Shown: positions 1 through 43,188 of the stretch, piece after piece
Position numbering within the stretch: the first letter of the stretch is position 1
Layout: every line of letters starts with the position of its first letter
NCBI GenBank assembly: GCA_040954595.2
Contig: CM082584.2
Span: 4,406,110-4,470,109, forward strand
Direction: 5' to 3'
Origin: Balanoglossus misakiensis
Lineage: Eukaryota; Animalia; Hemichordata
Length of the DNA: 64,000 nt
Program-made: the position numbers and the translations under genes
Notes under the pieces: model-generated
The model's database searches: none
What the model saw: the letters and a program-made list of their open reading frames with translations, nothing else
What the model was told of the DNA's origin: nothing

Positions 1-3000
1 TAGTAAAAACACTTCTGTTCTTTGTTCCTGACTATGCTTTTCAATTGGAAACGTCGTATCACGATCGACGCTGTTATCAGAAAAGAAAACAATAGGAGCA
101 ACTTTGTACCCGGCACACCTATATTCCTTTGTGTAAATTAGCTGTTTCCATGGTGCACTTTAAAAACAAAACAAAACAAAACAAAACAAAACATCACTCA
201 TATCTTTATTTTAAAATTTCGCTCAACAAGATTTCTTTGTTTTCTCATTTTAGTAAAAACATTTCTGTTCTTTGTTCCTGACTATGCTTTTCAATTGGAA
301 ATGTCGCATCACGATCGACGCTGTTATCAGAAAAGAAAACAATAGGAGCAACTTTGTACCCGGCACACCGATATTCCTTTGTGTAAATTAGCTGTTTCCA
401 TGGTGCACTTTAAAAACAAAACAAAACAAAACAAAACAAAACATCACTCATATCTTTATTTTAAAATTTCGCTCAACAAGATTTCTTTGTTTTCTCATTT
501 TAGTAAACACATTTCTGTTCTTTGTTCCTGACTATGCTTTTCAATTGGAAACGTCGCATCACGATCGACGCTGTTATCAGAAAAGAAAACAATAGGAGCA
601 ACTTTGTACCCGGCACACCGATATTCCTTTGTGTAAATTAGCTGTTTCCATGGTGCACTTTAAAAACAAAACAAAACAAAACAAAACAAAACAAAACATC
701 ACTCATATCTTTATTTTAAAATTTCGCTCAACAAGTTTTCTTTGTTTTCTCATTTTAGTAAAAACACTTCTGTTCTTTGTTCCTGACTATGCTTTTCAAT
801 TGGAAACGTCGTATCACGATCGACGCTGTTATCAGAAAAGAAAACAATAGGAGCAACTTTGTACCCGGCACACCGATATTCCTTTGTGTAAATTAGCTGT
901 TTCCATGGTGCACTTTAAAAACAAAACAAAACAAAACAAAACAAAACAAAACATCACTCATATCTTTATTTTAAAATTTCGCTCAACAAGATTTCTTTGT
1001 TTTCTCATTTTAGTAAAAACATTTCTGTTCTTTGTTCCTGACTATGCTTTTCAATTGGAAATGTCGCATCACGATCGACGCTGTTATCAGAAAAGAAAAC
1101 AATAGGAGCAACTTTGTACCCGGCACACCGATATTCCTTTGTGTAAATTAGCTGTTTCCATGGTGCACTTTAAAAACAAAACAAAACAAAACAAAACAAA
1201 ACAAAACATCACTCATATCTTTATTTTAAAATTTCGCTCAACAAGATTTCTTTGTTTTCTCATTTTAGTAAAAACACTTCTCTTCTTTGTTCCTGACTAT
1301 GCTTTTCAATTGGAAACGTCGTATCACGATCGACGCTGTTATCAGAAAAGAAAACAATAGGAGCAACTTTGTACCCGGCACACCTATATTCCTTTGTGTA
1401 AATTAGCTGTTTCCATGGTGCACTTTAAAAACAAAACAAAACAAAACAAAACAAAACAAAACATCACTCATATCTTTATTTTAAAATTTCACTCAACAAG
1501 ATTTCTTTGTTTTCTCATTTTAGTAAAAACATTTCTGTTCTTTGTTCCTGACTATGCTTTTCAATTGGAAACGTCGTATCACGATCGACGCTGTTATCAG
1601 AAAAGAAAACAATAGGAGCAACTTTGTACCTGGTACACCTCTATTCCTTTGTGTAAATTAGCTGTTACCACGGTGCACTTTAAAAACAAAACAAAACAAA
1701 ACAAAACAAAACAAAACAAAACATCACTCATATCTTTATTTTAAAATTTCACTCAACAAGATTTCTTTGTTTCCCATTTTAGTAAAAACACTTCTGTTCT
1801 TTGTTCCTGACTATGCTTTTCAATTGGAAACGTCGTATCACGATCGACGCTGTTATCAGAAAAGAAAACAATAGGAGCAACTTTGTACCCGGCACACCTA
1901 TATTCCTTTGTATAAATTAGCTGTTTCCATGGTGCACTTTAAAAACAAAACAAAACAAAACAAAACAAAACAAAACAAAACATCACTCATATCTTTATTT
2001 TAAAATTTCACTCAACAAGATTTCTTTGTTTCCCATTTTAGTAAAAACACTTCTGTTCTTTTTTCCGGACAATGCTTTTCAATTGGAAACGTCGTATCAC
2101 GATCGACGCTGTTATCAGAAAAGAAAACAATAGGAGCAACTTTGTACCCGGTACACCTATATTCCTTTGTGTAAATTAGCTGTTTCCATGGTGCACTTTA
2201 AAAACAAAACAAAACAAAACAAAACAAAACAAAACATCACTCATATCTTTATTTTAAAATTTCACTCAACAAGATTTCTTTGTTTCCCATTTTAGTAAAA
2301 ACACTTCTGCTCTTTTTTCCGGACAATGCTTTTCAATTGGAAACGTCGTATCACGATCGACGCTGTTATCAGAAAAGAAAACAATAGGAGCAACTTTGTA
2401 CCCGGCACACCTATATTCCTTTGTGTAAATTAGCTGTTTCCATGGTGCACTTTAAAAACAAAACAAAACAAAACAAAACATCACTCATATCTTTATTTTA
2501 AAATTTCACTCAACAAGATTTCTTTGTTTCCCATTTTAGTAAAAACACTTCTGTTCTTTGTTCCTGACTATGCTTTTCAATTGGAAACGTCGTATCACGA
2601 TCGACGCTGTTATCAGAAAAGAAAACAATAGGAGCAACTTTGTACCCGGCACACCTATATTCCTTTGTATAAATTAGCTGTTTCCATGGTGCACTTTAAA
2701 AACAAAACAAAACAAAACAAAACAAAACAAAACAAAACATCACTCATATCTTTATTTTAAAATTTCACTCAACAAGATTTCTTTGTTTCCCATTTTAGTA
2801 AAAACACTTCTGTTCTTTTTTCCGGACAATGCTTTTCAATTGGAAACGTCGTATCACGATCGACGCTGTTATCAGAAAAGAAAACAATAGGAGCAACTTT
2901 GTACCCGGTACACCTATATTCCTTTGTGTAAATTAGCTGTTTCCATGGTGCACTTTAAAAACAAAACAAAACAAAACAAAACAAAACAAAACATCACTCA

Positions 3001-6000
3001 TATCTTTATTTTAAAATTTCACTCAACAAGATTTCTTTGTTTCCCATTTTAGTAAAAACACTTCTGCTCTTTTTTCCGGACAATGCTTTTCAATTGGAAA
3101 CGTCGTATCACGATCGACGCTGTTATCAGAAAAGAAAACAATAGGAGCAACTTTGTACCCGGCACACCTATATTCCTTTGTGTAAATTAGCTGTTTCCAT
3201 GGTGCACTTTAAAAACAAAACAAAACAAAACAAAACATCACTCATATCTTTATTTTAAAATTTCGCTCAACAAGATTTCTTTGTTTTCTCATTTTAGTAA
3301 AAACACTTCTGTTCTTTGTTCCTGACTATGCTTTTCAATTGGAAACGTCGTATCACGATCGACGCTGTTATCAGAAAAGAAAACAATAGGAGCAACTTTG
3401 TACCCGGCACACCTATATTCCTTTGTGTAAATTAGCTGTTTCCATGGTGCACTTTAAAAACAAAACAAAACAAAACATCACTCATATCTTTATTTTAAAA
3501 TTTCGCTCAACAAGATTTCTTTGTTTTCTCATTTTAGTAAAAACATTTCTGTTCTTTGTTCCTGACTATGCTTTTCAATTGGAAATGTCGCATCACGATC
3601 GACGCTGTTATCAGAAAAGAAAACAATAGGAGCAACTTTGTACCCGGCACACCTACATTCCTTTGTGTAAATTAGCTGTTTCCATGGTGCACTTTAAAAA
3701 CAAAACAAAACAAAACAAAACAAAACAAAACATCACTCATATCTTTATTTTAAAATTTCGCTCAACAAGTTTTCTTTGTTTTCTCATTTTAGTAAAAACA
3801 CTTCTGTTCTTTGTTCCTGACTATGCTTTTCAATTGGAAACGTCGTATCACGATCGACGCTGTTATCAGAAAAGAAAACAATAGGAGCAACTTTGTACCC
3901 GGCACACCTATATTCCTTTGTGTAAATTAGCTGTTTCCATGGTGCACTTTAAAAACAAAACAAAACAAAACAAAACAAAACATCACTCATATCTTTATTT
4001 TAAAATTTCGCTCAACAAGATTTCTTTGTTTTCTCATTTTAGTAAAAACATTTCTGTTCTTTGTTCCTGACTATGCTTTTCAATTGGAAATGTCGCATCA
4101 CGATCGACGCTGTTATCAGAAAAGAAAACAATAGGAGCAACTTTGTACCCGGCACACCGATATTCCTTTGTGTAAATTAGCTGTTTCCATGGTGCACTTT
4201 AAAAACAAAACAAAACAAAACAAAACAAAACATCACTCATATCTTTATTTTAAAATTTCGCTCAACAAGATTTCTTTGTTTTCTCATTTTAGTAAACACA
4301 TTTCTGTTCTTTGTTCCTGACTATGCTTTTCAATTGGAAACGTCGCATCACGATCGACGCTGTTATCAGAAAAGAAAACAATAGGAGCAACTTTGTACCC
4401 GGCACACCGATATTCCTTTGTGTAAATTAGCTGTTTCCATGGTGCACTTTAAAAACAAAACAAAACAAAACAAAACAAAACATCACTCATATCTTTATTT
4501 TAAAATTTCGCTCAACAAGATTTCTTTGTTTTCTCATTTTAGTAAAAACACTTCTCTTCTTTGTTCCTGACTATGCTTTTCAATTGGAAACGTCGTATCA
4601 CGATCGACGCTGTTATCAGAAAAGAAAACAATAGGAGCAACTTTGTACCCGGCACACCTATATTCCTTTGTGTAAATTAGCTGTTTCCATGGTGCACTTT
4701 AAAAACAAAACAAAACAAAACAAAACAAAACAAAACATCACTCATATCTTTATTTTAAAATTTCACTCAACAAGATTTCTTTGTTTTCTCATTTTAGTAA
4801 AAACATTTCTGTTCTTTGTTCCTGACTATGCTTTTCAATTGGAAACGTCGTATCACGATCGACGCTGTTATCAGAAAAGAAAACAATAGGAGCAACTTTG
4901 TACCTGGTACACCTCTATTCCTTTGTGTAAATTAGCTGTTACCACGGTGCACTTTAAAAACAAAACAAAACAAAACAAAACAAAACAAAACAAAACATCA
5001 CTCATATCTTTATTTTAAAATTTCGCTCAACAAGATTTCTTTGTTTTCTCATTTTAGTAAAAACATTTCTGTTCTTTGTTCCTGACTATGCTTTTCAATT
5101 GGAAACGTCGTATCACGATCGACGCTGTTATCAGAAAAGAAAACAATAGGAGCAACTTTGTACCCGGCACACCTATATTCCTTTGTGTAAATTAGCTGTT
5201 TCCATGGTGCACTTTAAAAACAAAACAAAACAAAACAAAACAAAACAAAACATCACTCATATCTTTATTTTAAAATTTCACTCAACAAGATTTCTTTGTT
5301 TCCCATTTTAGTAAAAACACTTCTGTTCTTTGTTCCTGACTATGCTTTTCAATTGGAAACGTCGTATCACGATCCACGCTGTTATCAGAAAAGAAAACAA
5401 TAGGAGCAACTTTGTACCCGGCACACCTATATTCCTTTGTATAAATTAGCTGTTTCCATGGTGCACTTTAAAAACAAAACAAAACAAAACAAAACAAAAC
5501 AAAACAAAACAAAACATCACTCATATCTTTATTTTAAAATTTCACTCAACAAGATTTCTTTGTTTCCCATTTTAGTAAAAACACTTCTGTTCTTTTTTCC
5601 GGACAATGCTTTTCAATTGGAAACGTCGTATCACGATCGACGCTGTTATCAGAAAAGAAAACAATAGGAGCAACTTTGTACCCGGTACACCTATATTCCT
5701 TTGTGTAAATTAGCTGTTTCCATGGTGCACTTTAAAAACAAAACAAAACAAAACAAAACAAAACAAAACATCACTCATATCTTTATTTTAAAATTTCACT
5801 CAACAAGATTTCTTTGTTTCCCATTTTAGTAAAAACACTTCTGCTCTTTTTTCCGGACAATGCTTTTCAATTGGAAACGTCGTATCACGATCGACGCTGT
5901 TATCAGAAAAGAAAACAATAGGAGCAACTTTGTACCCGGCACACCTATATTCCTTTGTGTAAATTAGCTGTTTCCATGGTGCACTTTAAAAACAAAACAA

Positions 6001-7497
6001 AACAAAACAAAACATCACTCATATCTTTATTTTAAAATTTCACTCAACAAGATTTCTTTGTTTCCCATTTTAGTAAAAACACTTCTGTTCTTTGTTCCTG
6101 ACTATGCTTTTCAATTGGAAACGTCGTATCACGATCGACGCTGTTATCAGAAAAGAAAACAATAGGAGCAACTTTGTACCCGGCACACCTATATTCCTTT
6201 GTATAAATTAGCTGTTTCCATGGTGCACTTTAAAAACAAAACAAAACAAAACAAAACAAAACAAAACATCACTCATATCTTTATTTTAAAATTTCACTCA
6301 ACAAGATTTCTTTGTTTCCCATTTTAGTAAAAACACTTCTGTTCTTTTTTCCGGACAATGCTTTTCAATTGGAAACGTCGTATCACGATCGACGCTGTTA
6401 TCAGAAAAGAAAACAATAGGAGCAACTTTGTACCCGGCACACCTATATTCCTTTGTGTAAATTAGCTGTTTCCATGGTGCACTTTAAAAACAAAACAAAA
6501 CAAAACAAAACATCACTCATATCTTTATTTTAAAATTTCACTCAACAAGATTTCTTTGTTTCCCATTTTAGTAAAAACACTTCTGTTCTTTGTTCCTGAC
6601 TATGCTTTTCAATTGGAAACGTCGTATCACGATCGACGCTGTTATCAGAAAAGAAAACAATAGGAGCAACTTTGTACCCGGCACACCTATATTCCTTTGT
6701 ATAAATTAGCTGTTTCCATGGTGCACTTTAAAAACAAAACAAAACAAAACAAAACAAAACAAAACATCACTCATATCTTTATTTTAAAATTTCACTCAAC
6801 AAGATTTCTTTGTTTCCCATTTTAGTAAAAACACTTCTGTTCTTTTTTCCGGACAATGCTTTTCAATTGGAAACGTCGTATCACGATCGACGCTGTTATC
6901 AGAAAAGAAAACAATAGGAGCAACTTTGTACCCGGCACACCTATATTCCTTTGTGTAAATTAGCTGTTTCCATGGTGCACTTTAAAAACAAAACAAAACA
7001 AAACAAAACAAAACAAAACAAAACATCACTCATATCTTTATTTTAAAATTTCGCTCAACAAGATTTCTTTGTTTTCTCATTTTAGTAAAAACATTTCTGT
7101 TCTTTGTTCCTGACTATGCTTTTCAATTGGAAATGTCGCATCACGATCGACGCTGTTATCAGAAAAGAAAACAATAGGAGCAACTTTGTACCCGGCACAC
7201 CTATATTCCTTTGTGTAAATTAGCTGTTTCCATGGTGCACTTTAAAAACAAAACAAAACAAAACAAAACAAAACATCACTCATATCTTTATTTTAAAATT
7301 TCGCTCAACAAGATTTCTTTGTTTTCTCATTTTAGTAAAAACACTTCTGTTCTTTGTTCCTGACTATGCTTTTCAATTGGAAACGTCGTATCACGATCGA
7401 CGCTGTTATCAGAAAAGAAAACAATAGGAGCAACTTTGTACCCGGCACACCTATATTCCTTTGTGTAAATTAGCTGTTTCCATGGTGCACTTTAAAA
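1..7497. repeat. Satellite array of ~30 monomers of 245-260 bp, each with a variable (CAAAA)n tract; runs off the left edge
   Basis: Near-identical units recur every 245-260 bp (acgatcgacgctgttatcagaaaagaaaacaataggagc). Length differences come mainly from CAAAA copy number. Confidence 0.98.
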
Positions 7498-10400
7498 ACA
7501 GAACACACCATTGGTTCGAAATATAGTTATACACATTATATCACAATTTGGGATGCAAAATGAAAAAAAAATATGAGAGTTCATCATTTTGATTTGTTAT
7601 TCCATAAATTTGAACACTATCAATCTTTATATATCGCCGTACCGTGTGCAGCGTCAATTTCTCATGTACATTGTATATTGTTACAACGTTGGCGACTGTT
7701 GTGTTTGAAGACGTCAATTTGTCTTTAACGTTACCATTTGAGAAAAATCCGACAGGGCAGTAAAATTCCATGACAAAATTTCAAAAACGGGTATACCCCT
7801 AATGAACCCCTTGGTTTGAAAAACGATTGATTTCCCATTTTTCTTATGTACCTTCATAATGCAATAGTCAACATTGGCAATGCCTTGGATATCTTCTGAA
7901 ATTCAGTGTCTTGCAGCATTTTTATCCAGTAATATAATTTATATCGGCGCATTTTGATTACCACCCGAAATCCCATCGTCCGCTCACACGGGTTGTTGCA
8001 AGACATTGGCGGGCGAAGATGTTTCACGTTTCCGAATTGATAAAATAAATTTAAACTTGGACTCTGTCTCGGTTGTTGCATTGTCTTCGTTCACGTTTTT
8101 GTCATGAAAAGCGATCATAAATTACCAAACTGTTGAAAAATGCGCAGCAAACTAGACTGGGACTTATAAAACTTACCTGCAGTATGTCGACGTCGTCTTA
8201 GTACAAGTCAAATGAGACTTTGTTAACAATAGCACACGTTTTATGTACTAGTATCAGTGAGCAATAAATTATCTACGAACAATATGTATATTAATTATTA
8301 TGTCACATACCCGATTGGTTACTCCGAAGGATCAACCATTTTATGTAGGGTATCCAAGATCGTTTTTATAGCCCTTTATTAGGAGGAAGTTGATGTAATT
8401 ATATGTAAGTTTTTGTGGACTTGACATTTAGAAAAGAGTTGTAAGTACAGGTTTTGAATTTCACCTGATATAAGATTAAATCAATTAAACGTGAAAGGTT
8501 AGTAATACTATAGACTAAAATCCAGCTAAATTTGAAAACTTGCCATCCGTTGGTCCGGATTGGGGGTTGTCGTATTCAAATTAAGGCAGTCGATTCCATG
8601 GCTACATGTACAAACAAATTAAACAGAAATTCCATGGAAACCATGTACACTACGTGCCTACAGATTGTACGCCAAGGTTTTAAATGACTGGTGCCAGGCT
8701 AGTAACAATATGGATGTAAACAAAAACGAGGCAGTATGTGAAGTCAGTTTTATTTAGACCGTTAAATTAGACCGGGTCGCGTTTCACAGCTTAGACACCA
8801 TGTCATATGCCTTGCTCCATGTTAATCAAACAAGTAATAAAAAAATCGGGCGCAAAGGCCAAGTAGCCGACAAAATATGCAAATGATATGAAAGCTTCTA
8901 TGATGATGATGGGGTGGGGGGGGGGGGGGGGCTAGTGGGAGTTGGAGTGGGAACTGCACGGGGCCCTGCCTGTTTGTAGTTAGTTGCAAAGTTACATTTC
9001 TGTTCTTTGTTCCTGACTATGCTTTTCAATTGGAAACGTCGTATCACGATCGACGCTGTTATCAGAAAAGAAAACAATAGGAGCAACTTTGTACCCGGCA
9101 CACCTATATTCCTTTGTGTAAATTAGCTGTTTCCATGGTGCACTTTAAAAACAAAACAAAACAAAACAAAACATCACTCATATCTTTATTTTAAAATTTC
9201 GCTCAACAAGATTTCTTTGTTTTCTCATTTTAGTAAAAACATTTCTGTTCTTTGTTCCTGACTATGCTTTTCAATTGGAAATGTCGCATCACGATCGACG
9301 CTGTTATCAGAAAAGAAAACAATAGGAGCAACTTTGTACCCGGCACACCTACATTCCTTTGTGTAAATTAGCTGTTTCCATGGTGCACTTTAAAAACAAA
9401 ACAAAACAAAACAAAACATCACTCATATCTTTATTTTAAAATTTCGCTCAACAAGATTTCTTTGTTTTCTCATTTTAGTAAAAACACTTCTGTTCTTTGT
9501 TCCTGACTATGCTTTTCAATTGGAAACGTCGTATCACGATCGACGCTGTTATCAGAAAAGAAAACAATAGGAGCAACTTTGTACCCGGCACACCTATATT
9601 CCTTTGTGTAAATTAGCTGTTTCCATGGTGCACTTTAAAAACAGAACACACCATTGGTTCGAAATATAGTTATACACATTATATCACAATTTGGGATGCA
9701 AAATGAAAAAAAAAATATGAGAGTTCATCATTTTGATTTGTTATTCCATAAATTTGAACACTATCAATCTTTATATATCGCCGTACCGTGTGCAGCGTCA
9801 ATTTCTCATGTACATTGTATATTGTTACAACGTTGGCGACTGTTGTGTTTGAAGACGTCAATTTGTCTTTAACGTTACCATTTGAGAAAAATCCGACAGG
9901 GCAGTAAAATTCCATGACAAAATTTCAAAAACGGGTATACCCCTAATGAACCCCTTGGTTTGAAAAACGATTGATTTCCCATTTTTCTTATGTACCTTCA
10001 TAATGCAATAGTCAACATTGGCAATGCCTTGGATATCTTCTGAAATTCAGTGTCTTGCAGCATTTTTATCCAGTAATATAATTTATATCGGCGCATTTTG
10101 ATTACCACCCGAAATCCCATCGTCCGCTCACACGGGTTGTTGCAAGACATTGGCGGGCGAAGATGTTTCACGTTTCCGAATTGATAAAATAAATTTAAAC
10201 TTGGACTCTGTCTCGGTTGTTGCATTGTCTTCGTTCACGTTTTTGTCATGAAAAGCGATCATAAATTACTAAACTGTTGAAAAATGCGCAGCAAACTAGA
10301 CTGGGACTTATAAAACTTACCTGCAGTATGTCGACGTCGTCTTAGTACAAGTCAAATGAGACTTTGTTAACAATAGCACACGTTTTATGTACTAGTATCA

Positions 10401-13400
10401 GTGAGCAATAAATTATCTACGAACAATATGTATATTAATTATTATGTCACATACCCGATTGGTTACTCCGAAGGATCAACCATTTTATGTAGGGTATCCA
10501 AGATCGTTTTTATAGCCCTTTATTAGGAGGAAGTTGATGTAATTATATGTAAGTTTTTGTGGAGTTGACATTTAGAAAAGAGTTGTAAGTACAGGTTTTG
10601 AATTTCACCTGATATAAGATTAAATCAATTAAACGTGAAAGGTTAGTAATACTATAGACTAAAATCCAGCTAAATTTGAAAACTTGCCATCCGTTGGTCC
10701 GGATTGGGGGTTGTCGTATTCAAATTAAGGCAGTCGATTCCATGGCTACATGTACAAACAAATTAAACAGAAATTCCATGGAAACCATGTACACTACGTG
10801 CCTACAGATTGTACGCCAAGGTTTTAAATGACTGGTGCCAGGCTAGTAACAATATGGATGTAAACAAAAACGAGGCAGTATGTGAAGTCAGTTTTATTTA
10901 GACCGTTAAATTAGACCGGGTCGCGTTTCACAGCTTAGACACCATGTAATATGCCTTGCTCCATGTTAATCAAACAAGTAATAAAAAAATCGGGCGCAAA
11001 GGCCAAGTAGCCGACAAAATATGCAAATGATATGAAAGCTTCTATGATGATGATGGGGTGGGGGGGGGGGGCTAGTGGGAGTTGGAGTGGGAACTGCACG
11101 GGGCCCTGCCTGTTTGTAGTTAGTTGCAAAGTTACATTTCTGTTCTTTGTTCCTGACTATGCTTTTCAATTGGAAACGTCGTATCACGATCGACGCTGTT
11201 ATCAGAAAAGAAAACAATAGGAGCAACTTTGTACCCGGCACACCTATATTCCTTTGTGTAAATTAGCTGTTTCCATGGTGCACTTTAAAAACAAAACAAA
11301 ACAAAACAAAACATCACTCATATCTTTATTTTAAAATTTCGCTCAACAAGATTTCTTTGTTTTCTCATTTTAGTAAAAACATTTCTGTTCTTTGTTCCTG
11401 ACTATGCTTTTCAATTGGAAACGTCGTATCACGATCGACGCTGTTATCAGAAAAGAAAACAATAGGAGCAACTTTGTACCCGGCACACCTATATTCCTTT
11501 GTGTAAATTAGCTGTTTCCATGGTGCACTTTAAAAACAAAACAAAACAAAACAAAACATCACTCATATCTTTATTTTAAAATTTCGCTCAACAAGATTTC
11601 TTTGTTTTCTCATTTTAGTAAAAACATTTCTGTTCTTTGTTCCTGACTATGCTTTTCAATTGGAAACGTCGTATCACGATCGACGCTGTTATCAGAAAAG
11701 AAAACAATAGGAGCAACTTTGTACCCGGCACACCTATATTCCTTTGTGTAAATTAGCTGTTTCCATGGTGCACTTTAAAAACAGAACACACCATTGGTTC
11801 GAAATATAGTTATACACATTATATCACAATTTGGGATGCAAAATGAAAAAAAAAATATGAGAGTTCATCATTTTGATTTGTTATTCCATAAATTTGAACA
11901 CTATCAATCTTTATATATCGCCGTACCGTGTGCAGCGTCAATTTCTCATGTACATTGTATATTGTTACAACGTTGGCGACTGTTGTGTTTGAAGACGTCA
12001 ATTTGTCTTTAACGTTACCATTTGAGAAAAATCCGACAGGGCAGTAAAATTCCATGACAAAATTTCAAAAACGGGTATACCCCTAATGAACCCCTTGGTT
12101 TGAAAAACGATTGATTTCCCATTTTTCTTATGTACCTTCATAATGCAATAGTCAACATTGGCAATGCCTTGGATATCTTCTGAAATTCAGTGTCTTGCAG
12201 CATTTTTATCCAGTAATATAATTTATATCGGCGCATTTTGATTACCACCCGAAATCCCATCGTCCGCTCACACGGGTTGTTGCAAGACATTGGCGGGCGA
12301 AGATGTTTCACGTTTCCGAATTGATAAAATAAATTTAAACTTGGACTCTGTCTCGGTTGTTGCATTGTCTTCGTTCACGTTTTTGTCATGAAAAGCGATC
12401 ATAAATTACCAAACTGTTGAAAAATGCGCAGCAAACTAGACTGGGACTTATAAAACTTACCTGCAGTATGTCGACGTCGTCTTAGTACAAGTCAAATGAG
12501 ACTTTGTTAACAATAGCACACGTTTTATGTACTAGTATCAGTGAGCAATAAATTATCTACGAACAATATGTATATTAATTATTATGTCACATACCCGATT
12601 GGTTACTCCGAAGGATCAACCATTTTATGTAGGGTATCCAAGATCGTTTTTATAGCCCTTTATTAGGAGGAAGTTGATGTAATTATATGTAAGTTTTTGT
12701 GGAGTTGACATTTAGAAAAGAGTTGTAAGTACAGGTTTTGAATTTCACCTGATATAAGATTAAATCAATTAAACGTGAAAGGTTAGTAATACTATAGACT
12801 AAAATCCAGCTAAATTTGAAAACTTGCCATCCGTTGGTCCGGATTGGGGGTTGTCGTATTCAAATTAAGGCAGTCGATTCCATGGCTACATGTACAAACA
12901 AATTAAACAGAAATTCCATGGAAACCATGTACACTACGTGCCTACAGATTGTACGCCAAGGTTTTAAATGACTGGTGCCAGGCTAGTAACAATATGGATG
13001 TAAACAAAAACGAGGCAGTATGTGAAGTCAGTTTTATTTAGACCGTTAAATTAGACCGGGTCGCGTTTCACAGCTTAGACACCATGTAATATGCCTTGCT
13101 CCATGTTAATCAAACAAGTAATAAAAAAATCGGGCGCAAAGGCCAAGTAGCCGACAAAATATGCAAATGATATGAAAGCTTCTATGATGATGATGGGGTG
13201 GGGGGGGGGGGCTAGTGGGAGTTGGAGTGGGAACTGCACGGGGCCCTGCCTGTTTGTAGTTAGTTGCAAAGTTACATTTCTGTTCTTTGTTCCTGACTAT
13301 GCTTTTCAATTAGAAACGTCGTATCACGATCGACGCTGTTATCAGAAAAGAAAACAATAGGAGCAACTTTGTACCCGGCACACCTATATTCCTTTGTGTA

Positions 13401-16400
13401 AATTAGCTGTTTCCATGGTGCACTTTAAAAACAAAACAAAACAAAACAAAACAAAACAAAACATCACTCATATCTTTATTTTAAAATTTCACTCAACAAG
13501 ATTTCTTTGTTTCCCATTTTAGTAAAAACACTTCTGTTCTTTTTTCCGGACAATGCTTTTCAATTGGAAACGTCGTATCACGATCGACGCTGTTATCAGA
13601 AAAGAAAACAATAGGAGCAACTTTGTACCCGGTACACCTATATTCCTTTGTGTAAATTAGCTGTTTCCATGGTGCACTTTAAAAACAAAACAAAACAAAA
13701 CAAAACAAAACATCACTCATATCTTTATTTTAAAATTTCACTCAACAAGATTTCTTTGTTTCCCATTTTAGTAAAAACACTTCTGTTCTTTTTTCCGGAC
13801 AATGCTTTTCAATTGGAAACGTCGTATCACGATCGACGCTGTTATCAGAAAAGAAAACAATAGGAGCAACTTTGTACCCGGCACACCTATATTCCTTTGT
13901 GTAAATTAGCTGTTTCCATGGTGCACTTTAAAAACAGAACACACCATTGGTTCGAAATATAGTTATACACATTATATCACAATTTGGGATGCAAAATGAA
14001 AAAAAAAATATGAGAGTTCATCATTTTGATTTGTTATTCCATAAATTTGAACACTATCAATCTTTATATATCGCCGTACCGTGTGCAGCGTCAATTTCTC
14101 ATGTACATTGTATATTGTTACAACGTTGGCGACTGTTGTGTTTGAAGACGTCAATTTGTCTTTAACGTTACCATTTGAGAAAAATCCGACAGGGCAGTAA
14201 AATTCCATGACAAAATTTCAAAAACGGGTATACCCCTAATGAACCCCTTGGTTTGAAAAACGATTGATTTCCCATTTTTCTTATGTACCTTCATAATGCA
14301 ATAGTCAACATTGGCAATGCCTTGGATATCTTCTGAAATTCAGTGTCTTGCAGCATTTTTATCCAGTAATATAATTTATATCGGCGCATTTTGATTACCA
14401 CCCGAAATCCCATCGTCCGCTCACACGGGTTGTTGCAAGACATTGGCGGGCGAAGATGTTTCACGTTTCCGAATTGATAAAATAAATTTAAACTTGGACT
14501 CTGTCTCGGTTGTTGCATTGTCTTCGTTCACGTTTTTGTCATGAAAAGCGATCATAAATTACCAAACTGTTGAAAAATGCGCAGCAAACTAGACTGGGAC
14601 TTATAAAACTTACCTGCAGTATGTCGACGTCGTCTTAGTACAAGTCAAATGAGACTTTGTTAACAATAGCACACGTTTTATGTACTAGTATCAGTGAGCA
14701 ATAAATTATCTACGAACAATATGTATATTAATTATTATGTCACATACCCGATTGGTTACTCCGAAGGATCAACCATTTTATGTAGGGTATCCAAGATCGT
14801 TTTTATAGCCCTTTATTAGGAGGAAGTTGATGTAATTATATGTAAGTTTTTGTGGAGTTGACATTTAGAAAAGAGTTGTAAGTACAGGTTTTGAATTTCA
14901 CCTGATATAAGATTAAATCAATTAAACGCGAAAGGTTAGTAATACTATAGACTAAAATCCAGCTAAATTTGAAAACTTGCCATCCGTTGGTCCGGATTGG
15001 GGGTTGTCGTATTCAAATTAAGGCAGTCGATTCCATGGCTACATGTACAAACAAATTAAACAGAAATTCCATGGAAACCATGTACACTACGTGCCTACAG
15101 ATTGTACGCCAAGGTTTTAAATGACTGGTGCCAGGCTAGTAACAATATGGATGTAAACAAAAACGAGGCAGTATGTGAAGTCGGTTTTATTTAGACCGTT
15201 AAATCAGACCGGGTCGCGTTTCACAGCTTAGACACCATGTCATATGCCTTGCTCCATGTTAATCAAACAAGTAATAAAAAAATCGGGCGCAAAGGCCAAG
15301 TAGCCGACAAAATATGCAAATGATATGAAAGCTTCTATGATGATGATGGGGTGGGGGGGGGGGGGCTAGTGGGAGTTGGAGTGGGAACTGCACGGGGCCC
15401 TGCCTGTTTGTAGTTAGTTGCAAAGTTACATTTCTGTTCTTTGTTCCTGACTATGCTTTTCAATTGGAAACGTCGTATCACGATCGACGCTGTTATCAGA
15501 AAAGAAAACAATAGGAGCAACTTTGTACCCGGCACACCTATATTCCTTTGTGTAAATTAGCTGTTTCCATGGTGCACTTTAAAAACAGAACACACCATTG
15601 GTTCGAAATATAGTTAGACACATTATATCACAATTTGGGATGCAAAATGAAAAAAAATATATGAGAGTTCTTCATTTTGATTTGTTATTCCATAAATTTG
15701 AACACTATCAATCTTTATATATCGCCGTACCGTGTGCAGCGTCAATTTCTCATGTACATTGCATATTGTTACAACGTTGGCGACTGTTGTGTTTGATTAC
15801 CACCCGAAATTTTGATAACCACCCGAAATCCCATCGTCCGCTCACAAGGGTTGTTGCAAGACATTGGCGGGCGAAGATGTTTCACGTTTCCGAATTGATA
15901 AAATAAATTTAAACTTGGACTCTGTCTCGGTTGTTGCATTGTCTTCGTTCACGTTTTTGTCATGAAAAGCGATCATAAATTACCAAACTGTTGAAAAATG
16001 CGCAGCAAACTAGACTGGGACTTATAAAACTTACCTGCAGTATGTCGACGTCGTCTTAGTACAAGTCAAATGAGACTTTGTTAACAATAGCACACGTTTT
16101 ATGTACTAGTATCAGTGAGCAATAAATTATCTACGAACAATATGTATATTAATTATTATGTCACATACCCGATTGGTTACTCCGAAGGATCAACCATTTT
16201 ATGTAGGGTATCCAAGATCGTTTTTATAGCCCTTTATTAGGAGGAAGTTGATGTAATTATATGTAAGTTTTTGTGGAGTTGACATTTAGAAAAGAGTTGT
16301 AAGTACAGGTTTTGAATTTCACCTGATATAAGATTAAATCAATTAAACGTGAAAGGTTAGTAATACTATAGACTAAAATCCAGCTAAATTTGAAAACTTG

Positions 16401-18488
16401 CCATCCGTTGGTCCGGATTGGGGGTTGTCGTATTCAAATTAAGGCAGTCGATTCCATGGCTACATTTACAAACAAATTAAACAGAAATTCCATGGAAACC
16501 ATGTACACTACGTGCCTACAGATTGTACGCCAAGGTTTTAAATGACTGGTGCCAGGCTAGTAACAATATGGATGTAAACAAAAACGAGGCAGTATGTGAA
16601 GTCAGTTTTATTTAGACCGTTAAATTAGACCGGGTCGCGTTTCACAGCTTAGACACCATGTCATATGCCTTGCTCCATGTTAATCAAACAAGTAATTAAA
16701 AAATCGGGCGCAAAGGCCAAGTAGCCGACAAAATATGCAAATGATATGAAAGCTTCTATGATGATGATGGGGTGGGGGGGGGGCTAGTGGGAGTTGGAGT
16801 GGGAACTGCACGGGGCCCTGCCTGTTTGTAGTTAGTTGCTAAGTTACATTTCTGTTCTTTGTTCCTGACTATGCTTTTCAATTGGAAACGTCGTATCACG
16901 ATCGACGCTGTTATCAGAAAAGAAAACAATAGGAGCAACTTTGTACCCGGCACACCTATATTCCTTTGTGTAAATTAGCTGTTTCCATGGTGCACTTTAA
17001 AAACAGAACACACCATTGGTTCGAAATATAGTTATACACATTATATCACAATTTGGGATGCAAAATGAAAAAAAAAATATGAGAGTTCATCATTTTGATT
17101 TGTTATTCCATAAATTTGAACACTATCAATCTTTATATATCGCCGTACCGTGTGCGGCGTCAATTTCTCATGTACATTGTATATTGTTACAACGTTGGCG
17201 ACTGTTGTGTTTGAAGACGTCAATTTGTCTTTAACGTTACCATTTGAGAAAAATCCGACAGGGCAGTAAAATTCCATGACAAAATTTCAAAAACGGGTAT
17301 ACCCCTAATGAACCCCTTGGTTTGAAAAACGATTGATTTCCCATTTTTCTTATGTACCTTCATAATGCAATAGTCAACATTGGCAATGCCTTGGATATCT
17401 TCTGAAATTCAGTGTCTTGCAGCATTTTTATCCAGTAATATAATTTATATCGGCGCATTTTGATTACCACCCGAAATCCCATCGTCCGCTCACAAGGGTT
17501 GTTGCAAGACATTGGCGGGCGAAGATGTTTCACGTTTCCGAATTGATAAAATAAATTTAAACTTGGACTCTGTCTCGGTTGTTGCATTGTCTTCGTTCAC
17601 GTTTTTGTCATGAAAAGCGATCATAAATTACCAAACTGTTGAAAAATGCTCAGCAAACTAGACTGGGACTTATAAAACTTACCTGCAGTATGTCGACGTC
17701 GTCTTAGTACAAGTCAAATGAGACTTTGTTAACAATAGCACACGTTTTATGTACTAGTATCAGTGAGCAATAAATTATCTACGAACAATATGTATATTAA
17801 TTATTATGTCACATACCCGATTGGTTACTCCGAAGGATCAACCATTTTATGTAGGGTATCCAAGATCGTTTTTATAGCCCTTTATTAGGAGGAAGTTGAT
17901 GTAATTATATGTAAGTTTTTGTGGACTTGACATTTAGAAAAGAGTTGTAAGTACAGGTTTTGAATTTCACCTGATATAAGATTAAATCAATTAAACGTGA
18001 AAGGTTAGTAATACTATAGACTAAAATCCAGCTAAATTTGAAAACTTGCCATCCGTTGGTCCGGATTGGGGGTTGTCGTATTCAAATTAAGGCAGTCGAT
18101 TCCATGGCTACATGTACAAACAAAGTAAACAGAAATTCCATGGAAACCATGTACACTACGTGCCTACAGATTGTACGCCAAGGTTTTAAATGACTGGTGC
18201 CAGGCTAGTAACAATATGGATGTAAACAAAAACGAGGCAGTATGTGAAGTCAGTTTTATTTAGACCGTTAAATTAGACCGGGTCGCGTTTCACAGCTTAG
18301 ACACCATGTCATATGCCTTGCTCCATGTTAATCAAACAAGTAATAAAAAAATCGGGCGCAAAGGCCAAGTAGCCGACAAAATATGCAAATGATATGAAAG
18401 CTTCTATGATGATGATGGGGTGGGGAGCTAGTGGGAGTTGGAGTGGGAACTGCACGGTGCCCTGTGTGTAGTTAGTTGCAAAGTTACA
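7498..18488. repeat. Higher-order array: six copies of a ~1.5-kb unit (starts ~7498, 9641, 11781, 13934, 15585, 17003) separated by ~2.6 or ~0.6 satellite monomers
   Basis: The unit runs from aacagaacacaccattgg to gttgcaaagttaca and recurs at ~2140-bp spacing, shorter for later units. A single-copy homologue is at ~37390-39270. Confidence 0.96.
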
Positions 18489-18535: not shown

Positions 18536-21440
18536 CTAGCACATTCTTTTAGCTTCAGGGCTGTACTGTACATCGACCAGGTCGGCATGCTGTGCGTGGA
18601 GACAAGGTTGCGACGAATACCCGTTCATTGTGATTTTGCCCACGCTTCTGGCGTCGGCCGGGCTTCCAATGTTCATTTTCAACGCATGGGGGGGGGGGGG
18701 GTGATATCGCGTTTCTTTGTCGGAGCATGCGTCATTGTAGTAATGGCACATGTTGTTAATCCCGTTTTCTGGTAGTATATAGCCGTACACGTCAACCACT
18801 TTACATAACGGTAGCATTAGTTGCACGCCTGTGGGTAAACATTTACATACATCATGAGGCTGATTTCTCCAGTATAATAGGTCATGTTAGGTCAGTTGGT
18901 CAGTAGTTCAGAGGTCACGAGATCCCACCGCCGGCAATTAAGCAATAAAACACCCCCAGCCATGGTATACCACTCGATTTTGACCAGTTCACGACATATA
19001 CGCACAAGCGATAGCGAGTGCATATATGGAGTTGAACTGGTCAAAATCGAGTGGTATACCATGGCTGGGGGTGTTTAATATATTATACCAGTATATTGAA
19101 ACTTTGCATAAAACAATTTTGAAAAGGCATTTTCTTTGACTATGAGTTTGGCGTGATATATGACTGTGGTATATGACGAATATATCATAGTCACGTGTCG
19201 TGTCTCAGCCAATAAAATAGCGTGATTTACACCATCAATATACTGGTATAATATAATATTCGATAACAGCGACGATAGCGAGAGACTTCTAAACGCTTTG
19301 CTCTTCTGACGATACTAGTGAAGAATGACAAAATGACGTGCCGAAATTAAGACTAATCACCACGTTTTGGCGATCGCAATGCCGGGTCGCGAAGCTCAGC
19401 TCTATCGTTCATCGAGTCCAATGTTTACAAGCATAAAGTAGTTCCCGTGTATAGGCCGATGCACTCATAGTGATGACCAGGTGATTAGTTTACAACGTGC
19501 CGTAAAGAAACTGTTATGAGAAAACTATCGGTATATGTGATACATGAATGTGGTTTTTATTAACATTGAATGGAATGGCAAAGGGAATATAAAATGAAGC
19601 AAAGTTTTTATTTTAACACGTTTTCAACAGGGACTATTTTATCTCATTTGCATACCTCTCGCAAAAAATGCCGGTTTCATTTTACTGGCAACAACGCCAG
19701 TTGTTTGGTACTGTGGATGTACAAACTCATTTCCGTAATGCGGCTGTAGAACAAGGCAAATGGTCAATCTCGGGTTAATTTTGACAAACGCATTTTACAC
19801 GTTCGTTAGGCTATATACATCTAAGGCGTAGATTTAATATCGTCAACCTTTGCTTTTGATGATGTGCTCTTTATTAGGAAGCCAACCACGTGTGTCACGT
19901 GCTTTCCAAAAAGAGGTGAAGCGAAATAAAATTCCTCACCAACGAATCCCGATGAAGGTGTGTGTCCAATAATTGGCCTTTCACAGTATTCCTGAATAAC
20001 GTCCCAGCCTCGCCAGAGTGATGTCGGATTGATGACGTACATAGTCTTGTCAGGGTGATTCAACCTCCAAGAGATGTACCCCTTCAGAAATTGCAAGCTG
20101 TCCCTGGCCCACTGACAAATTGAAAAGACGGAGATAAAGAAACATAAAACTATAGTCATTGGATTCCACTATTGACAGGTTCTTAGCATACAAAAATAAC
20201 ATTCATGATAATTTGGACTGTGCTCAGGTTTCATGTATGAAAATTGCTTACTTTAGCAGCGAGGTTTTAATCATATTATGAGACAAAAGTCGTCTCACAA
20301 CAAAACTGTTCCTATTTCCTCTCAATTAACGTTTCAATATTACCATCCAATATATTTAGCTTGACGACACAATAATTAATCGGTAACAGTAACGAACATC
20401 ACCATAAAACGTTACTTTCGTGGCATGGAGGAACACTGCCACGTAGAATGGAAACCCATGGGCGTACTTCAATATATATTTGGTTGGGATGTCCGCACTA
20501 TCTGGCTGAAACTTTACCCGTACACAGCTATGTCTTTATTAAACGTTTGTGGATGTTTGTGGCTGGTACGCAGTTCCTTCTGTCATCCACCAATTTATTT
20601 ATTTATTTACACATTAAAGGATTTCCTATTTACATACTCAAATAGGGGTAGAGACCCCTGTAAGGGTGTAATCTACCATGGGGTCCTACTAAAAAGTATA
20701 AAAATAAAAATTTAAAACAGAAAAATACACCCATGCGCCCATCCTATCCAACCCATTTCAACCATCGCACTAACCATCCACATAATGCCACACTAACTGA
20801 TTTTTACTTAATAATTACCCACCCTATTACGCTTACCGATTTCGGATCCAAAATTAGAATTTTTCAAACTGCGGCCACTTCCAACCACTGCGCACGTATC
20901 ATATTTGGGGACCGATCCAAGGAGATCGGCGACGGGGAAAAACTGCGCCAGGCCGAGTTCTCGTAGTGGGCTGGTATGTTGATCCAGAACACTGATGAAC
21001 GCCTTTGTCTGCATCGTACATAGGACATCGGCTGCGTTTTCAGTTCTGTTTGTGTGCACCCGGCAACCGGTGCGGTTTTGGGACTGTGGATATTTTTCAA
21101 GAGATTTGTTGAACATGTTCTCATAGTGCTCCAGGTACGACCTTATTATCTGGTTCGGGTTGTTCAGTGCTGTATCGAGGTTCTTGATGATGGTGGCCTG
21201 CCTGCCGGGTATAAACGCAGCTGAGACGACTTCGCTGACCAAACCTTGGGATTTGCGCATATGAGAATGTTTGTTGAGACTCTGTCCAACAGACGGCTGC
21301 GCACACTTGTCCGATATACTCCTTTCAGAATGATCTGTCATCGCAAAAATCAAGACGTAGCCCAGGCAAACTAGAAATCCAAGTCGTTCCAGAGTGGCAC
21401 GTCTAGTTCTGAATGTCCGCCGAGTTGATATGTTCGGCAT
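18536..21440 (-). pseudogene. ST6Gal-like sialyltransferase (GT29), copy 1: exons 21440-20837, 20111-19940, 18828-18536; exon 2 missing
   Basis: Type II anchor (LGFLVCLGYVLIFAM), start of sialylmotif L (CAVVGSGRSLKNSNFGSEI), motif S (PSSGFVGVQLMLPLCKVVDVYGY) and CHYY. Splice sites are GT-AG. The exon carrying the second half of motif L is absent, leaving a phase 1 to phase 0 mismatch. Confidence 0.88.
18938..19252. mobile_element. Double-hairpin non-autonomous element (family A), in ST6Gal intron
   Basis: Palindrome aaacacccccagccatggtataccac...gtggtataccatggctgggggtgttt followed by IR attataccagtatattg...caatatactggtataat. Four copies in the window. Confidence 0.8.
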
Positions 21441-22222
21441 AGCGAGGCAAAGCCTTAGCCTATATGGCAACGTTGCTGGAACTGTGTTGGCAATGTGACT
21501 GATTCTAGCAAATCACAACACAGCATGAGCATGGGGTGTGTTATAATGTACTTTACTAGTAGTAAGCTTCCATTAATGACTCAAACTGTAGCTACCCGTT
21601 AGTATTAAAACTCACTAACTGGTTGGTCAGGCTTTAGTGTTGTTGACACTATTTTAGCAAATATGAAGGAGATGGCATTTTGTTTTTTGTGGCTTTTGCC
21701 TTTTGAATTTCTGTGATTTTCGGTATTTTTGTGATTTGTCTGGGCACAGAAATTGTATGTATGACTGTTAGTTTTTCCGTGGGTACCCAACCTTTTGTGA
21801 CTGCACACAGCCTTGAAATGTGCAACACAACGTTTGAACATGTAGAATAGGTAGTGTTATAAACTGGCCTCTGGTGGGCCCATATTGACTAGCGGATGTG
21901 CTGTTGCAAGGGTATGAGCCATTCCACTTCTGACATGGGTAAAAGTTGGGCTGTTGAAATGTTTACAGAAAACCATACATGCAAGTACATGCTATGTAAT
22001 TTTCATTCCAATGTATTGCCAGAAAATAAAAAAAACCTCAATTTTACAATTAAACTCAGACAATTGTTTGATGGTGGTAACAATATCAGCAATAATCATG
22101 TCCTACAGTGTGTTGATATCAACTCCATGTTGACAGCAGACAGTGTGGGCTGTACATTTGTAGATTCATCAGTTTGAAATTCCATCATAAATGTCATCAT
22201 GGCATTTATAGTTAAGCTTTGA

Positions 22223-26227: not shown

Positions 26228-26256
26228 TTATACACGTCAAATGAATATCCTCATTT

Positions 26257-35100: not shown

Positions 35101-35538
35101 GTCAAAATCGAGTGGTATACCATGGCTGGGGGTGTTTTATTGCTATTATATTATACCAGTATATTGAAACTTTGCATAAAACATTTTAAAAAGGCACTTT
35201 CTTTGACTATGAGTTTTGCGTGATATATGACTGTGGTATGTGACGAATATATCACAGTCACGTGTCGTGTCTCGACCAATAAAATAGCGTGATTTACACC
35301 ATCAATATACTGGTATAATACAATGTATAATCTACAATATATATACTCGCATTAATGCCTTGACATAGGTAATGCACATCCAGACTGACAGCAACATGTC
35401 TTTCCATAATGTGAAAACGCCATTGATAAACAGCTTTAAAAATAACGTGCGTGTCTGACCATAGAGTAACACATTACTGACGTACCGGCGGTCGATAGGC
35501 CATGTCTGCCACTTGATAACGCCGTGTCTCGATTGACT
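29151..35538 (-). CDS. Putative upstream micro-exons of the ART gene: 35538-35486, 33883-33808, 33353-33304, 32911-32836, 29513-29452, 29184-29151 (GC donor)
   Basis: Each has an AG acceptor and a GT/GC donor. Phases alternate 1-0 and 0-1 and join in frame to exon 28674: ESIETRRYQVADMAYRPP|PELYGYGRPRSAPPVTPRGRPAPLP|EASMRMTRYRNFAAARQ|PELYG...|EPIGTYYYEMENMVTQFSQQT|LHERRIYEPGR|GQDG. No start codon identified. Confidence 0.6.
29970..31052. mobile_element. Kolobok-like MITE family B, interrupted in its left TIR by family C
   Basis: ttaa|agg...cct|ttaa. The body is nearly identical to the intact copy at 62136-62605. Confidence 0.8.
29979..30554. mobile_element. Kolobok-like MITE family C (nested)
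   Basis: TTAA on both sides and imperfect TIR aggtcccatgccatgc / gcatgtcataaaccct. A partial homologue is at ~60010-60267. Confidence 0.75.
31610..32162. mobile_element. PIF/Harbinger-like MITE (family I)
   Basis: Long TIR gggagcattcgttttttacagggag... with a TAA target duplication. Confidence 0.85.
32187..32623. mobile_element. PIF/Harbinger-like MITE (family D)
   Basis: ggccgttcacat...atgtgaacc ends. The first ~120 bp recur at 60281-60401. Confidence 0.65.
34102..34908. mobile_element. PIF/Harbinger-like MITE (family J)
   Basis: TIR ggctgcattcacaaacacctctggaggggg with a TTA target duplication. Confidence 0.85.
34999..35318. mobile_element. Double-hairpin element family A
   Basis: Same palindromes as 18938-19252, with different flanks. 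Confidence 0.8.
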
Positions 35539-37390: not shown

Positions 37391-37711
37391 ACAGAACACA
37401 CCATTGGTTCGAAATATAGTTATACACATTATATCACAATTTGGGATGCAAAATGAAAAAAAATATGAGAGTTCATCATTTTGATTTGTTATTCCATATA
37501 TTTGAACACTATCAATCTTTATATATCGCCGTACCGTGTGCAGTGTCAATTTCTCATGTATATTGTTACAACGTTGGCGACTATTGTGTTTGAAGACGTC
37601 AATTTGTCTTTAACGTTACCATTTGAGAAAAATCCGACAGGGCAGTAAAATTCCATGACAAAATGTCAATAACGGGTATACCCCTAATGAACCCCTTGGT
37701 TTGAAATACGA

Positions 37712-42878: not shown

Positions 42879-43188
42879 TTAAGCAATAAAACACCCCCAG
42901 CCATGGTATACCACGAGATTTTGACCAGTTCACGACATATACGCACGAGCGATAGCGAGTGCGTATATGGAGTTGAACTGGTCAAAATCGAGTGGTATAC
43001 CATGGCTGGGGGTGTTTTATTGCTATTATATCATGCCAGTATATTGAAACTTTGCATAAAACATTTTAAAAAGGCATTTTCTTTGACTATGATATATGAC
43101 TGTGGTATATGGCTAATATATCACGGTCACATGTTGTGTCTCGACCAATCAAATAGCTTGATTTACACCATCAATATACTGGTATAAT
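42879..43188. mobile_element. Double-hairpin element family A
   Basis: Same palindromes, with independent flanks. Confidence 0.8.

What the first reader, a model, noticed from the sequence alone, without database searches (positions are those of the whole stretch)
1..7497. The satellite monomer is an amplified splice-acceptor + micro-exon module related to the ART gene
Seen: on the minus strand every monomer reads ttgttttcttttctgataacAG|CG TCG ATC GTG ATA CGA CGT TTC CAA TTG..., giving (A)SIVIRRFQLKSIVRNKEQ. The same acceptor context and phase-1 start occur in single-copy micro-exons at 35538 (tttattaacAG, ESIETRRYQV), 33353 (cctgattaacAG) and 29513 (cctgattaacAG, EPIGT..EMENM..QQT). Those exons keep a GTA donor. 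The monomer has lost ~14 bp spanning that donor and runs into TAA. Inference: a coding exon-intron unit became satellite DNA, so the window holds ~40 strong acceptors in tandem. They could act as poison exons or splice traps for any minus-strand transcript crossing them.
Basis: partly seen in the sequence, partly recalled or inferred. Interest (0 to 1): 0.8.

Follow-up and report, generated by a model that had tools for sequence, protein, structure and literature searches.

The report
Satellite grown from a dead micro-exon
A 255-base repeat, in what is likely an acorn worm, carries a copy of a splice acceptor and the first codons of a likely dead micro-exon of the neighbouring ADP-ribosyltransferase-like gene, 44 times over; it is a clear record of a repeat growing out of gene sequence, of a kind already described in lancelets, and is likely without function.

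Summary
All 44 monomers (30 in 1-7505) carry the acceptor and reading frame described. A profile built only from the three single-copy micro-exons finds 44 of 44 (E 3e-11 to 2e-9). Only about 85 of the 255 bases are homologous (acceptor -45 to exon +40). The donor is absent, but the ~14-bp deletion is one of two alignments. The micro-exons belong to an unbroken 11-exon model of a NEURL4-C-like ART gene whose 5' exons alternate two module types. The monomer is a further module in the gene's decayed 5' part: its upstream partner exon has an in-frame stop. It was amplified recently at three nested levels (255 bp, 1.4-2.1 kb, about 21 kb) beside two broken sialyltransferase copies. The acceptor is of median strength, not exceptional. 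A trap anatomy exists on paper (upstream consensus donor, stop, AATAAA, GT-rich run), but selection tests are not significant and the closest published cases, amphioxus 'mirages', splice normally. Likely neutral. The scan has noted this kind of array before on other DNA (TFG, mitoguardin, a dead TCR segment). Splicing itself is untested.

The parts
1..7505 (-). Main array of the ~255-bp monomer, 29.7 copies, 30 acceptors; runs off the left edge of the window; internal (GTTTT)n of 4-9 units
   Evidence: TRF period 255; acceptors listed; haplotype blocks repeat inside the array
7363..7447 (-). The gene-derived 85 bases of one monomer: last 45 bases of intron with AG, first 40 bases of exon (first exon base 7402)
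   Evidence: HMM of single-copy exons hits 7447-7362 region, model positions 107-191; segment tests
7500..18488 (-). Higher-order repeat: six units of 1.4-2.1 kb, each sialyltransferase 3' flank + B-type pseudo-exon + consensus donor + 1 or 3 monomer acceptors
   Evidence: self-BLAST; unique parts differ 0.2-0.6%; junction has a 3-base microhomology
8544..8601 (-). B-type pseudo-exon with in-frame TAA and GC donor; identical copies start at 10745, 12885, 15038, 16459, 18107, 38890
   Evidence: B-module HMM E 3e-9 to 5e-8; 7 of 7 copies carry the stop
8171..8179 (-). Consensus donor CAG|GTAAGT, 774 bases upstream of the first acceptor of the main array; copies at 10320, 12460, 14613, 16034, 17682, 38465
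18539..21495 (-). Sialyltransferase (GT29) copy 2, 5'-truncated inside its first coding exon and missing one internal exon; start of the ~21-kb duplicate
   Evidence: Pfam PF00777 below cut-off; self-BLAST; breakpoint
26257..28674 (-). Five core exons of a NEURL4-C-like ADP-ribosyltransferase, open frame, HGT / NYA / VEW motifs present
   Evidence: 63% identity over 236 aa to a Ptychodera flava protein named neuralized-like 4
29151..29184 (-). Micro-exon B3 (34 nt, phase 0 to 1, GC donor), predicted
29452..29513 (-). Micro-exon A3 (62 nt, phase 1 to 0), single-copy paralogue of the monomer
32836..32911 (-). Micro-exon B2 (76 nt, phase 0 to 1), identical to B1, predicted
33304..33353 (-). Micro-exon A2 (50 nt, phase 1 to 0), single-copy paralogue of the monomer
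33808..33883 (-). Micro-exon B1 (76 nt, phase 0 to 1), predicted
35486..35538 (-). Micro-exon A1 (53 nt, phase 1 to 0), closest single-copy paralogue of the monomer; holds an in-frame ATG
   Evidence: 59 of 85 bases identical
36070..36152 (-). Remnant of a B-module upstream intron with no B exon behind it
   Evidence: B-module HMM E 3e-6, model positions 64-151
36651..37398 (-). Three monomers in the gene's own 5' region (acceptors 37295, 37040, 36760); the last runs into unique sequence and is the likely source position
   Evidence: three haplotypes seen once each
38833..38890 (-). B-type pseudo-exon of copy 1 with in-frame TAA
39321..42521 (-). Sialyltransferase (GT29) copy 1, frame broken at the end of the first coding exon and at a C-run in the last exon
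   Evidence: Pfam PF00777 E 1.5e-9 for one exon

Best explanation
The 255-bp repeat contains 85 bases homologous to the splice acceptor and exon start of three micro-exons of the neighbouring NEURL4-like ART gene, and is likely a functionless by-product of repeated local duplication of an exon module that had likely already died. Steps: (1, shown) the gene's 5' part alternates two exon modules, A (phase 1 to 0) and B (phase 0 to 1), in one open frame. (2, shown) further upstream the same modules are broken: B with a stop, A without its donor (the monomer), B without its exon. (3, inferred) the dead A module was duplicated head to tail to three copies, the junction seeding a (GTTTT)n run. (4, inferred) a ~21-kb segment holding the sialyltransferase and the ART gene was duplicated in tandem. 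(5, inferred) unequal crossing-over or slippage in the second copy multiplied the B-plus-A block six times and the monomer at least 30 times. (6, predicted) if a transcript crosses the copies, they are mostly skipped because no proper donor defines an exon; any use would end in a stop.
For: Homology. Module order and open 350-codon frame with compatible phases at all 10 junctions. Dead neighbours: 7 of 7 B copies with TAA, B remnant at 36070-36152, best GT within 300 bases after the terminal acceptor scores 3.6 against 7.3-7.9 for the paralogue donors. Recent, nested amplification: monomers differ 2.4% on average, higher-order units 0.2-0.6%, the two long copies 1.4-2.3%, the single-copy paralogue introns about 22%. 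Turnover pattern: 18 haplotypes in 44 copies with repeated blocks. No significant coding constraint: 4 of 10 variable exon sites are silent, P=0.13, and one copy has a nonsense change. Both flanking sialyltransferase copies are broken. Equally good acceptor-like sites occur elsewhere: 26 of 2261 minus-strand and 17 of 2173 plus-strand AG sites. Amphioxus mirages carry AG/GT signals and are reported not to disturb splicing.
Against: The last 25 bases before the AG are invariant in 44 of 44 copies: P=0.024 if variable sites fall uniformly, 0.06 when matched by base, 0.31 for any such run; a weak hint of constraint. A consensus donor lies 545-1170 bases upstream of the first monomer acceptor in all 7 blocks. 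37 of 43 copies have AATAAA followed by a GT-rich run. 29 of 37 adjacent pairs define a 192-232-base candidate exon with a middling donor. The exon model is a prediction from sequence; the N-terminal modules match none of 173 fetched relatives (best E 0.46). The splice-site scores rest on 21 hand-picked sites each.
Confidence: 0.7

Rival explanations
1. Working splice trap. A transcript of the ART gene, or read-through from the sialyltransferase, splices from the consensus donor into a monomer acceptor and ends at the stop and AATAAA, or includes a ~200-base stop-containing exon that triggers decay. More copies would mean less full-length ART mRNA.
For: Acceptor at median strength; consensus donor upstream in all 7 blocks; stop, AATAAA and GT-rich run in order in 37 of 43 copies; 29 of 29 candidate exons have stops in all frames; invariant acceptor tract; an intronic repeat with a splice signal changes splicing with length in ABCA7 (PMC5954066, passages).
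Against: AATAAA appears in 461 of 2000 shuffles of the monomer. The terminal copy at 36760 has neither AATAAA nor the GT-rich run. The cryptic donor form is changed in 8 of 44 copies. No promoter upstream of the arrays was identified; sialyltransferase copy 2 lacks its 5' end. Mirage precedent is neutral.
Confidence: 0.14
2. True mirage. The terminal copy (36760) is still a spliced exon, either non-coding 5' leader or a 38-base coding exon using a weak GT, and the upstream copies are passive duplicates of its acceptor in an intron.
For: The one in-phase GT after the acceptor, at +38, would give phase 1 to 0 like the paralogues. In-frame ATGs exist downstream in exons A1-A3, so upstream stops could be in a leader. 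Homology is best kept exactly at acceptor and exon start.
Against: That GT scores 0.8 bits, below all 21 training donors (2.6-11.5); no donor above 3.6 lies within 300 bases of the terminal acceptor. The B exon that should follow is missing.
Confidence: 0.08
3. The long duplicate is an assembly artefact: two alleles placed end to end, so that 'three monomers' and 'thirty monomers' are alleles of one locus.
For: The two long copies differ by only 1.4-2.3%, a level that allelic sequences of marine invertebrates can reach (recalled).
Against: Copy 2 begins at a sharp junction inside a sialyltransferase exon, joined to unrelated sequence with a short microhomology; the copies carry different lesions; monomer haplotypes form ordered blocks. 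The gene origin of the monomer would stand either way.
Confidence: 0.06
4. The monomer is part of a transposon or structured RNA and the likeness to the exons is secondary.
For: About 170 of its 255 bases have no detectable homologue in the gene modules; the whole genome could not be searched.
Against: All 44 copies in the window lie directly behind a B module in gene order. No inverted repeat frames the array. Rfam gives only a chance-level hit, E 0.98.
Confidence: 0.02

Closest known systems
Amphioxus 'mirage' minisatellites (globin BflGb6, BflGb9; Adh3; troponin C; PGBD5). PMC3087553 and PMC3902484, passages read
   Same: Head-to-tail copies of an intron 3' end plus the start of the next exon; AG kept in the copies; variable copy number; homogenised inner copies with distinct boundary copies; invertebrate deuterostome.
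   Different: Unit 255 bp against 10-160 bp; at least 30 copies against 3-6 in BflGb6; the last copy here is not an intact exon; only a third of the unit is recognisably gene-derived; the array is nested in a higher-order repeat and a segmental duplicate.
CapA satellite of New World monkeys, from an intron of NOS1AP. bioRxiv 10.1101/213868, first 10,000 of 15,962 characters read
   Same: A tandem repeat traced to single-copy gene sequence.
   Different: CapA is purely intronic, ~1,500 bp, up to 100,000 copies on many chromosomes; this array is local as far as seen and includes a splice acceptor and codons.
ATF7IP2 fragments amplified on the W chromosome of Eremias velox. PMC8160951, abstract only
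   Same: Exon-containing gene fragments turned into a repeat of unknown function.
   Different: Chromosome-wide composite element with SINEs and three exons, away from the parent gene.
ABCA7 intron 18 VNTR. PMC5954066, passages read
   Same: Tandem unit with a splice signal; model for a length-dependent effect on splicing.
   Different: 25-bp unit with a donor in an intact, expressed gene, effect measured; here an acceptor, and no effect measured.
NEURL4 C-terminal ART domain (host gene). PMC8932523, passages read
   Same: HG and EW motifs that the paper mutated are present; 63% identity to a Ptychodera protein of this family.
   Different: No neuralized repeats seen; a short low-complexity N-terminus from repeated micro-exons is predicted instead.

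Membership tests
Mirage minisatellite | Tandem unit spans an intron-exon boundary of the host gene | tested here: met
   Acceptor -45 to exon +40 homologous to three micro-exons
Mirage minisatellite | The array abuts the authentic, intact exon it copies | tested here: not met
   Terminal copy 36760 has no paralogous donor and stops in all three frames within 75 bases
Mirage minisatellite | Array lies in an intron of an intact gene | tested here: inconclusive
   ART copy 1 is open from 35538 down but its first exon is unknown; whatever follows the main array is outside the window
Mirage minisatellite | Copy-number instability and concerted evolution, boundary copies distinct | tested here: met
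   Groups of 1, 1, 3, 3, 3, 3 and at least 30; repeated haplotype blocks; the three copy-1 monomers are unique haplotypes
Mirage minisatellite | Mature mRNA is spliced normally past the copies | not testable with these tools
   Needs transcript reads of this species
Poison exon / intronic terminal exon (gene trap) | Usable acceptor followed by a premature stop | tested here: met
   8.7 bits, median strength; stop in 43 of 44 copies, one cut by the edge
Poison exon / intronic terminal exon (gene trap) | A donor or polyadenylation signal that closes the exon | tested here: inconclusive
   Cryptic donor 6.1 bits in 29 of 37 pairs; AATAAA in 37 of 43 copies but also in 23% of shuffles
Poison exon / intronic terminal exon (gene trap) | Included in transcripts and lowers full-length mRNA | not testable with these tools
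   Needs transcript reads and decay-blocked samples
Poison exon / intronic terminal exon (gene trap) | Sequence under constraint | tested here: inconclusive
   Acceptor tract invariant, P 0.024-0.06 (0.31 post hoc); silent share P 0.13; no other species available
Satellite DNA in the strict sense | Very long arrays, heterochromatic, many loci | not testable with these tools
   At least 7.5 kb here, left end unseen; no genome held
NEURL4-C-like ART (host gene) | Homology over the whole domain with the H, Y and E motifs | tested here: met
   63% over 236 aa, E 1e-107; HGT, NYA, VEW aligned with named relatives
NEURL4-C-like ART (host gene) | ADP-ribosyltransferase activity | not testable with these tools
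   Shown for human NEURL4 only

The most novel reading that the evidence does not exclude
The amplified block is a natural, self-assembled gene trap: consensus donor, then acceptor, 22 codons, stop, AATAAA and GT-rich run, repeated at least 30 times in front of a freshly duplicated ADP-ribosyltransferase gene. It would silence or dial down the extra copy, with array length acting as a dosage knob.
Probability: 0.1. Interest if true: 0.65.

Novelty: new variant of a known kind. Interest (0 to 1): 0.27.

Why it matters
The origin of a satellite can rarely be traced. Here the single-copy relatives, a three-copy stage, a higher-order stage and a 30-copy stage lie within 40 kb, so the birth of an array from a dead exon can be read step by step. 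It extends mirage-type repeats to a likely hemichordate and to a pseudo-exon. It would matter more if transcripts used the acceptors, since a repeat would then set the dose of an NAD-consuming enzyme; nothing here shows that.

Tried and rejected
Whole-genome search for the monomer: no genome is held, so dispersal is untested. Sequencing runs for 26200-36100: no RNA holder listed, so no reads could be laid; this is no evidence either way. Exact 23-base monomer pattern in metagenome contigs: 0 matches. Earlier scan notes near this place, by the monomer's sequence, and on ART genes in this genome: nothing shown. Rfam on 6900-11200: three copies of one hit at E 0.98, far below the family threshold; no ribozyme-type satellite. 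Inverted repeats around 36000-39400: none frames the array. Search for a near-identical database protein that would reveal the real exon use: best 71% identity with the last exon; nothing with the second core exon; none of 173 fetched relatives matches the N-terminal modules or the monomer peptide. Pfam has no family for the four ART exons tried, apart from one hit at E 0.047; the PDB sequence search with the closest relative gave nothing below E 0.69. The reading that monomers are live coding repeats was rejected: no in-phase donor of usable score, stop after 22 codons. The phase-2 frame, also open for 24-31 codons, was rejected as the ancestral frame because only phase 1 joins the paralogues into one open frame. 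A first exon model had one boundary off by one base and was corrected. Literature: 8 searches; the mirage search listed 2 papers, both on amphioxus; none of the listings seen described a hemichordate case, which is not proof of absence. The original Adh3 mirage paper was not read; supplements were not consulted.
Full report
What is there. The window starts inside a tandem array of a ~255-bp unit, 29.7 copies over 1-7505. Further copies lie at 8994-9648, 11134-11788, 13274-13941, 15428-15592, 16846-17010 and 36651-37398. On the minus strand 44 copies carry the acceptor motif, 30 of them in the main array.

Is the link to the micro-exons real? Yes. An internal monomer aligned to the region of 35538 scores 78 against 38.6 +/- 5.7 for dinucleotide shuffles (0 of 500) and is the best of 440 background windows; 33353 and 29513 score 61.5 (1 of 500) and 60.0 (0 of 500), but two unrelated windows score as well as these. 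The cleaner test is an HMM built only from the three single-copy exons and their flanks: it hits 44 of 44 monomers at E 2.8e-11 to 2.2e-9, always over model positions 105-192; the next hit is a different part of the model at E 1.8e-4 and the rest are E>=0.17. The shared stretch is about 85 bases, 59 identical to 35538 without gaps. By segment: the 45 bases before the AG match all three paralogues (0 of 1000 shuffles each); the first 40 exon bases match two of three (0, 0 and 659 of 1000); upstream and downstream segments match none convincingly (best 42 of 1000 among nine tests), and an HMM of donor plus downstream intron finds no monomer. So a third of the unit is recognisably gene-derived. 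The donor is missing. The loss is certain, its form is not.

The host gene. The last exon finds proteins named neuralized-like 4 in Saccoglossus, Ptychodera and Branchiostoma at up to 71% identity. Eleven exons from 35538 to 26257 join in one open frame of 350 codons with compatible phases, AG acceptors, nine GT donors and one GC donor. The core is 63% identical over 236 residues to a Ptychodera protein and keeps the HG, Y and EW motifs; the human NEURL4 C-terminal domain is an active ART and these motifs were mutated to inactivate it (PMC8932523, passages). The organism is therefore likely an acorn worm; earlier scan notes on this genome say the same. The six 5' exons alternate type A (phase 1 to 0: 35538, 33353, 29513) and type B (phase 0 to 1: 33883, 32911, 29184). 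This part of the model is predicted from sequence only and matches none of 173 relatives.

Where the monomer fits. Upstream of exon A1 the alternation continues in broken form: a B-intron remnant without exon at 36070-36152, the monomers as an A module at 36651-37398, and a B exon at 38833-38890 with an in-frame TAA. The sialyltransferase stop codon lies about 430 bases further up, and neither module HMM hits significantly above it, so the gene's original 5' end is not recognisable. The same stop is in all 7 copies of that B exon and the donor is missing in all 44 monomers, so both lesions predate the amplification (inference).

How it was amplified. 16846-21495 matches 36651-42499 at 1.4-2.3% difference. 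Copy 2 starts at a sharp junction inside the first coding exon of the sialyltransferase, which suggests a tandem duplication of about 21 kb and predicts a second ART gene left of the window (inference; only one ART copy is in the window). Both sialyltransferase copies are broken, in different ways; the C-run frameshift in copy 1 could be a read error. In copy 2 a block from the sialyltransferase 3' flank to the first monomer was repeated six times (0.2-0.6% apart, 3-base microhomology at the junction), and the monomer itself at least 30 times. The 44 copies fall into 18 haplotypes over 20 variable columns, 2.4% apart on average, with repeated blocks in the main array and three private haplotypes in copy 1. 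The single-copy paralogue introns are about 22% apart. This is the pattern of recent unequal exchange.

Could it trap splicing? For: the acceptor scores 8.7 bits, near the 7.8 median of 21 hand-picked acceptors of the window, and only 26 of 2261 other minus-strand AG sites reach it, four of them the modelled micro-exons. A consensus donor lies 545-1170 bases upstream of the first acceptor in all 7 blocks. 37 of 43 copies have AATAAA 40 bases after the stop, followed by a GTTTT run. 29 of 37 adjacent pairs define a 192-232-base candidate exon, all with stops in three frames, closed by a donor of 6.1 bits (training range 2.6-11.5). The 25 bases before the AG are invariant (P 0.024 uniform, 0.06 base-matched, 0.31 for any such run). 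Against: AATAAA arises in 461 of 2000 shuffles; the terminal copy lacks it; the cryptic donor is altered in 8 of 44 copies; silent changes are not significantly enriched (4 of 10, P 0.13) and one copy has a nonsense change; no promoter is identified upstream of either array, and the copy-2 sialyltransferase has lost its 5' end. The scores come from small matrices and are rough.

Comparison with what is known. Tandem duplications of an intron end plus exon start are described in amphioxus as mirages; many units keep AG/GT signals, they evolve concertedly, vary in number and are reported not to disturb splicing (PMC3087553, PMC3902484; passages). I took this lead from earlier scan notes, which list larger arrays of the kind in other animals. 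The present array works like a mirage in origin and turnover but fails one defining feature, since its last copy is not an intact exon; it is a variant grown from a pseudo-exon. Satellites from gene sequence are also known from CapA and ATF7IP2 (abstract). ABCA7 shows that such a repeat can alter splicing with length, which keeps the trap reading open at low odds.

Verdict. Observation largely right, origin right with limits, function unshown and probably absent. New variant of a known kind; interest 0.27. The bolder reading, a copy-number-tuned natural gene trap on a duplicated ART gene, has about one chance in ten.

Noticed in passing
window 26257-35538 (-): The ART gene's predicted N-terminus is built from alternating duplicated micro-exons; exons B1 and B2 are identical over 76 of 76 bases while the intron just upstream of them differs by 22%, which suggests recent conversion or duplication.
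   Followed up: partly
window 32753 (-): A second consensus CAG|GTAAGT donor follows a partial repeat of the B exon inside the intron after B2; no in-frame exon for it was found by eye.
   Followed up: partly
window 18539-21495 and 39321-42521 (-): Two GT29 sialyltransferase copies with different lesions; both have a run of 12-13 C in the last exon at the place of the short C-terminal motif.
   Followed up: partly
window 18936-19257, 34999-35327, 39718-40053, 42877-43196: Four copies of a ~330-bp element with long internal inverted repeats, MITE-like.
   Followed up: no
window 46031-46740 and 27240-27473: Long pure microsatellites: (TACA) x 176 and (TACAA) x 47, the second starting a few bases after an ART donor.
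   Followed up: no
window 47000-49400 (+): Exons with C-type lectin and F5/8 type C domains.
   Followed up: no
window 50380-51245 and 54140-63434 (-): Exons of two apparently ordinary genes, used as training splice sites; they look like diphthine synthase and a TPR subunit of TFIIIC (names recalled, not from a call).
   Followed up: no
protein P0019 (Ptychodera flava): A relative with its own low-complexity, internally repeated N-terminus ahead of the same ART domain, not alignable to the one predicted here; across the family the domain sits behind many different N-terminal domains.
   Followed up: partly
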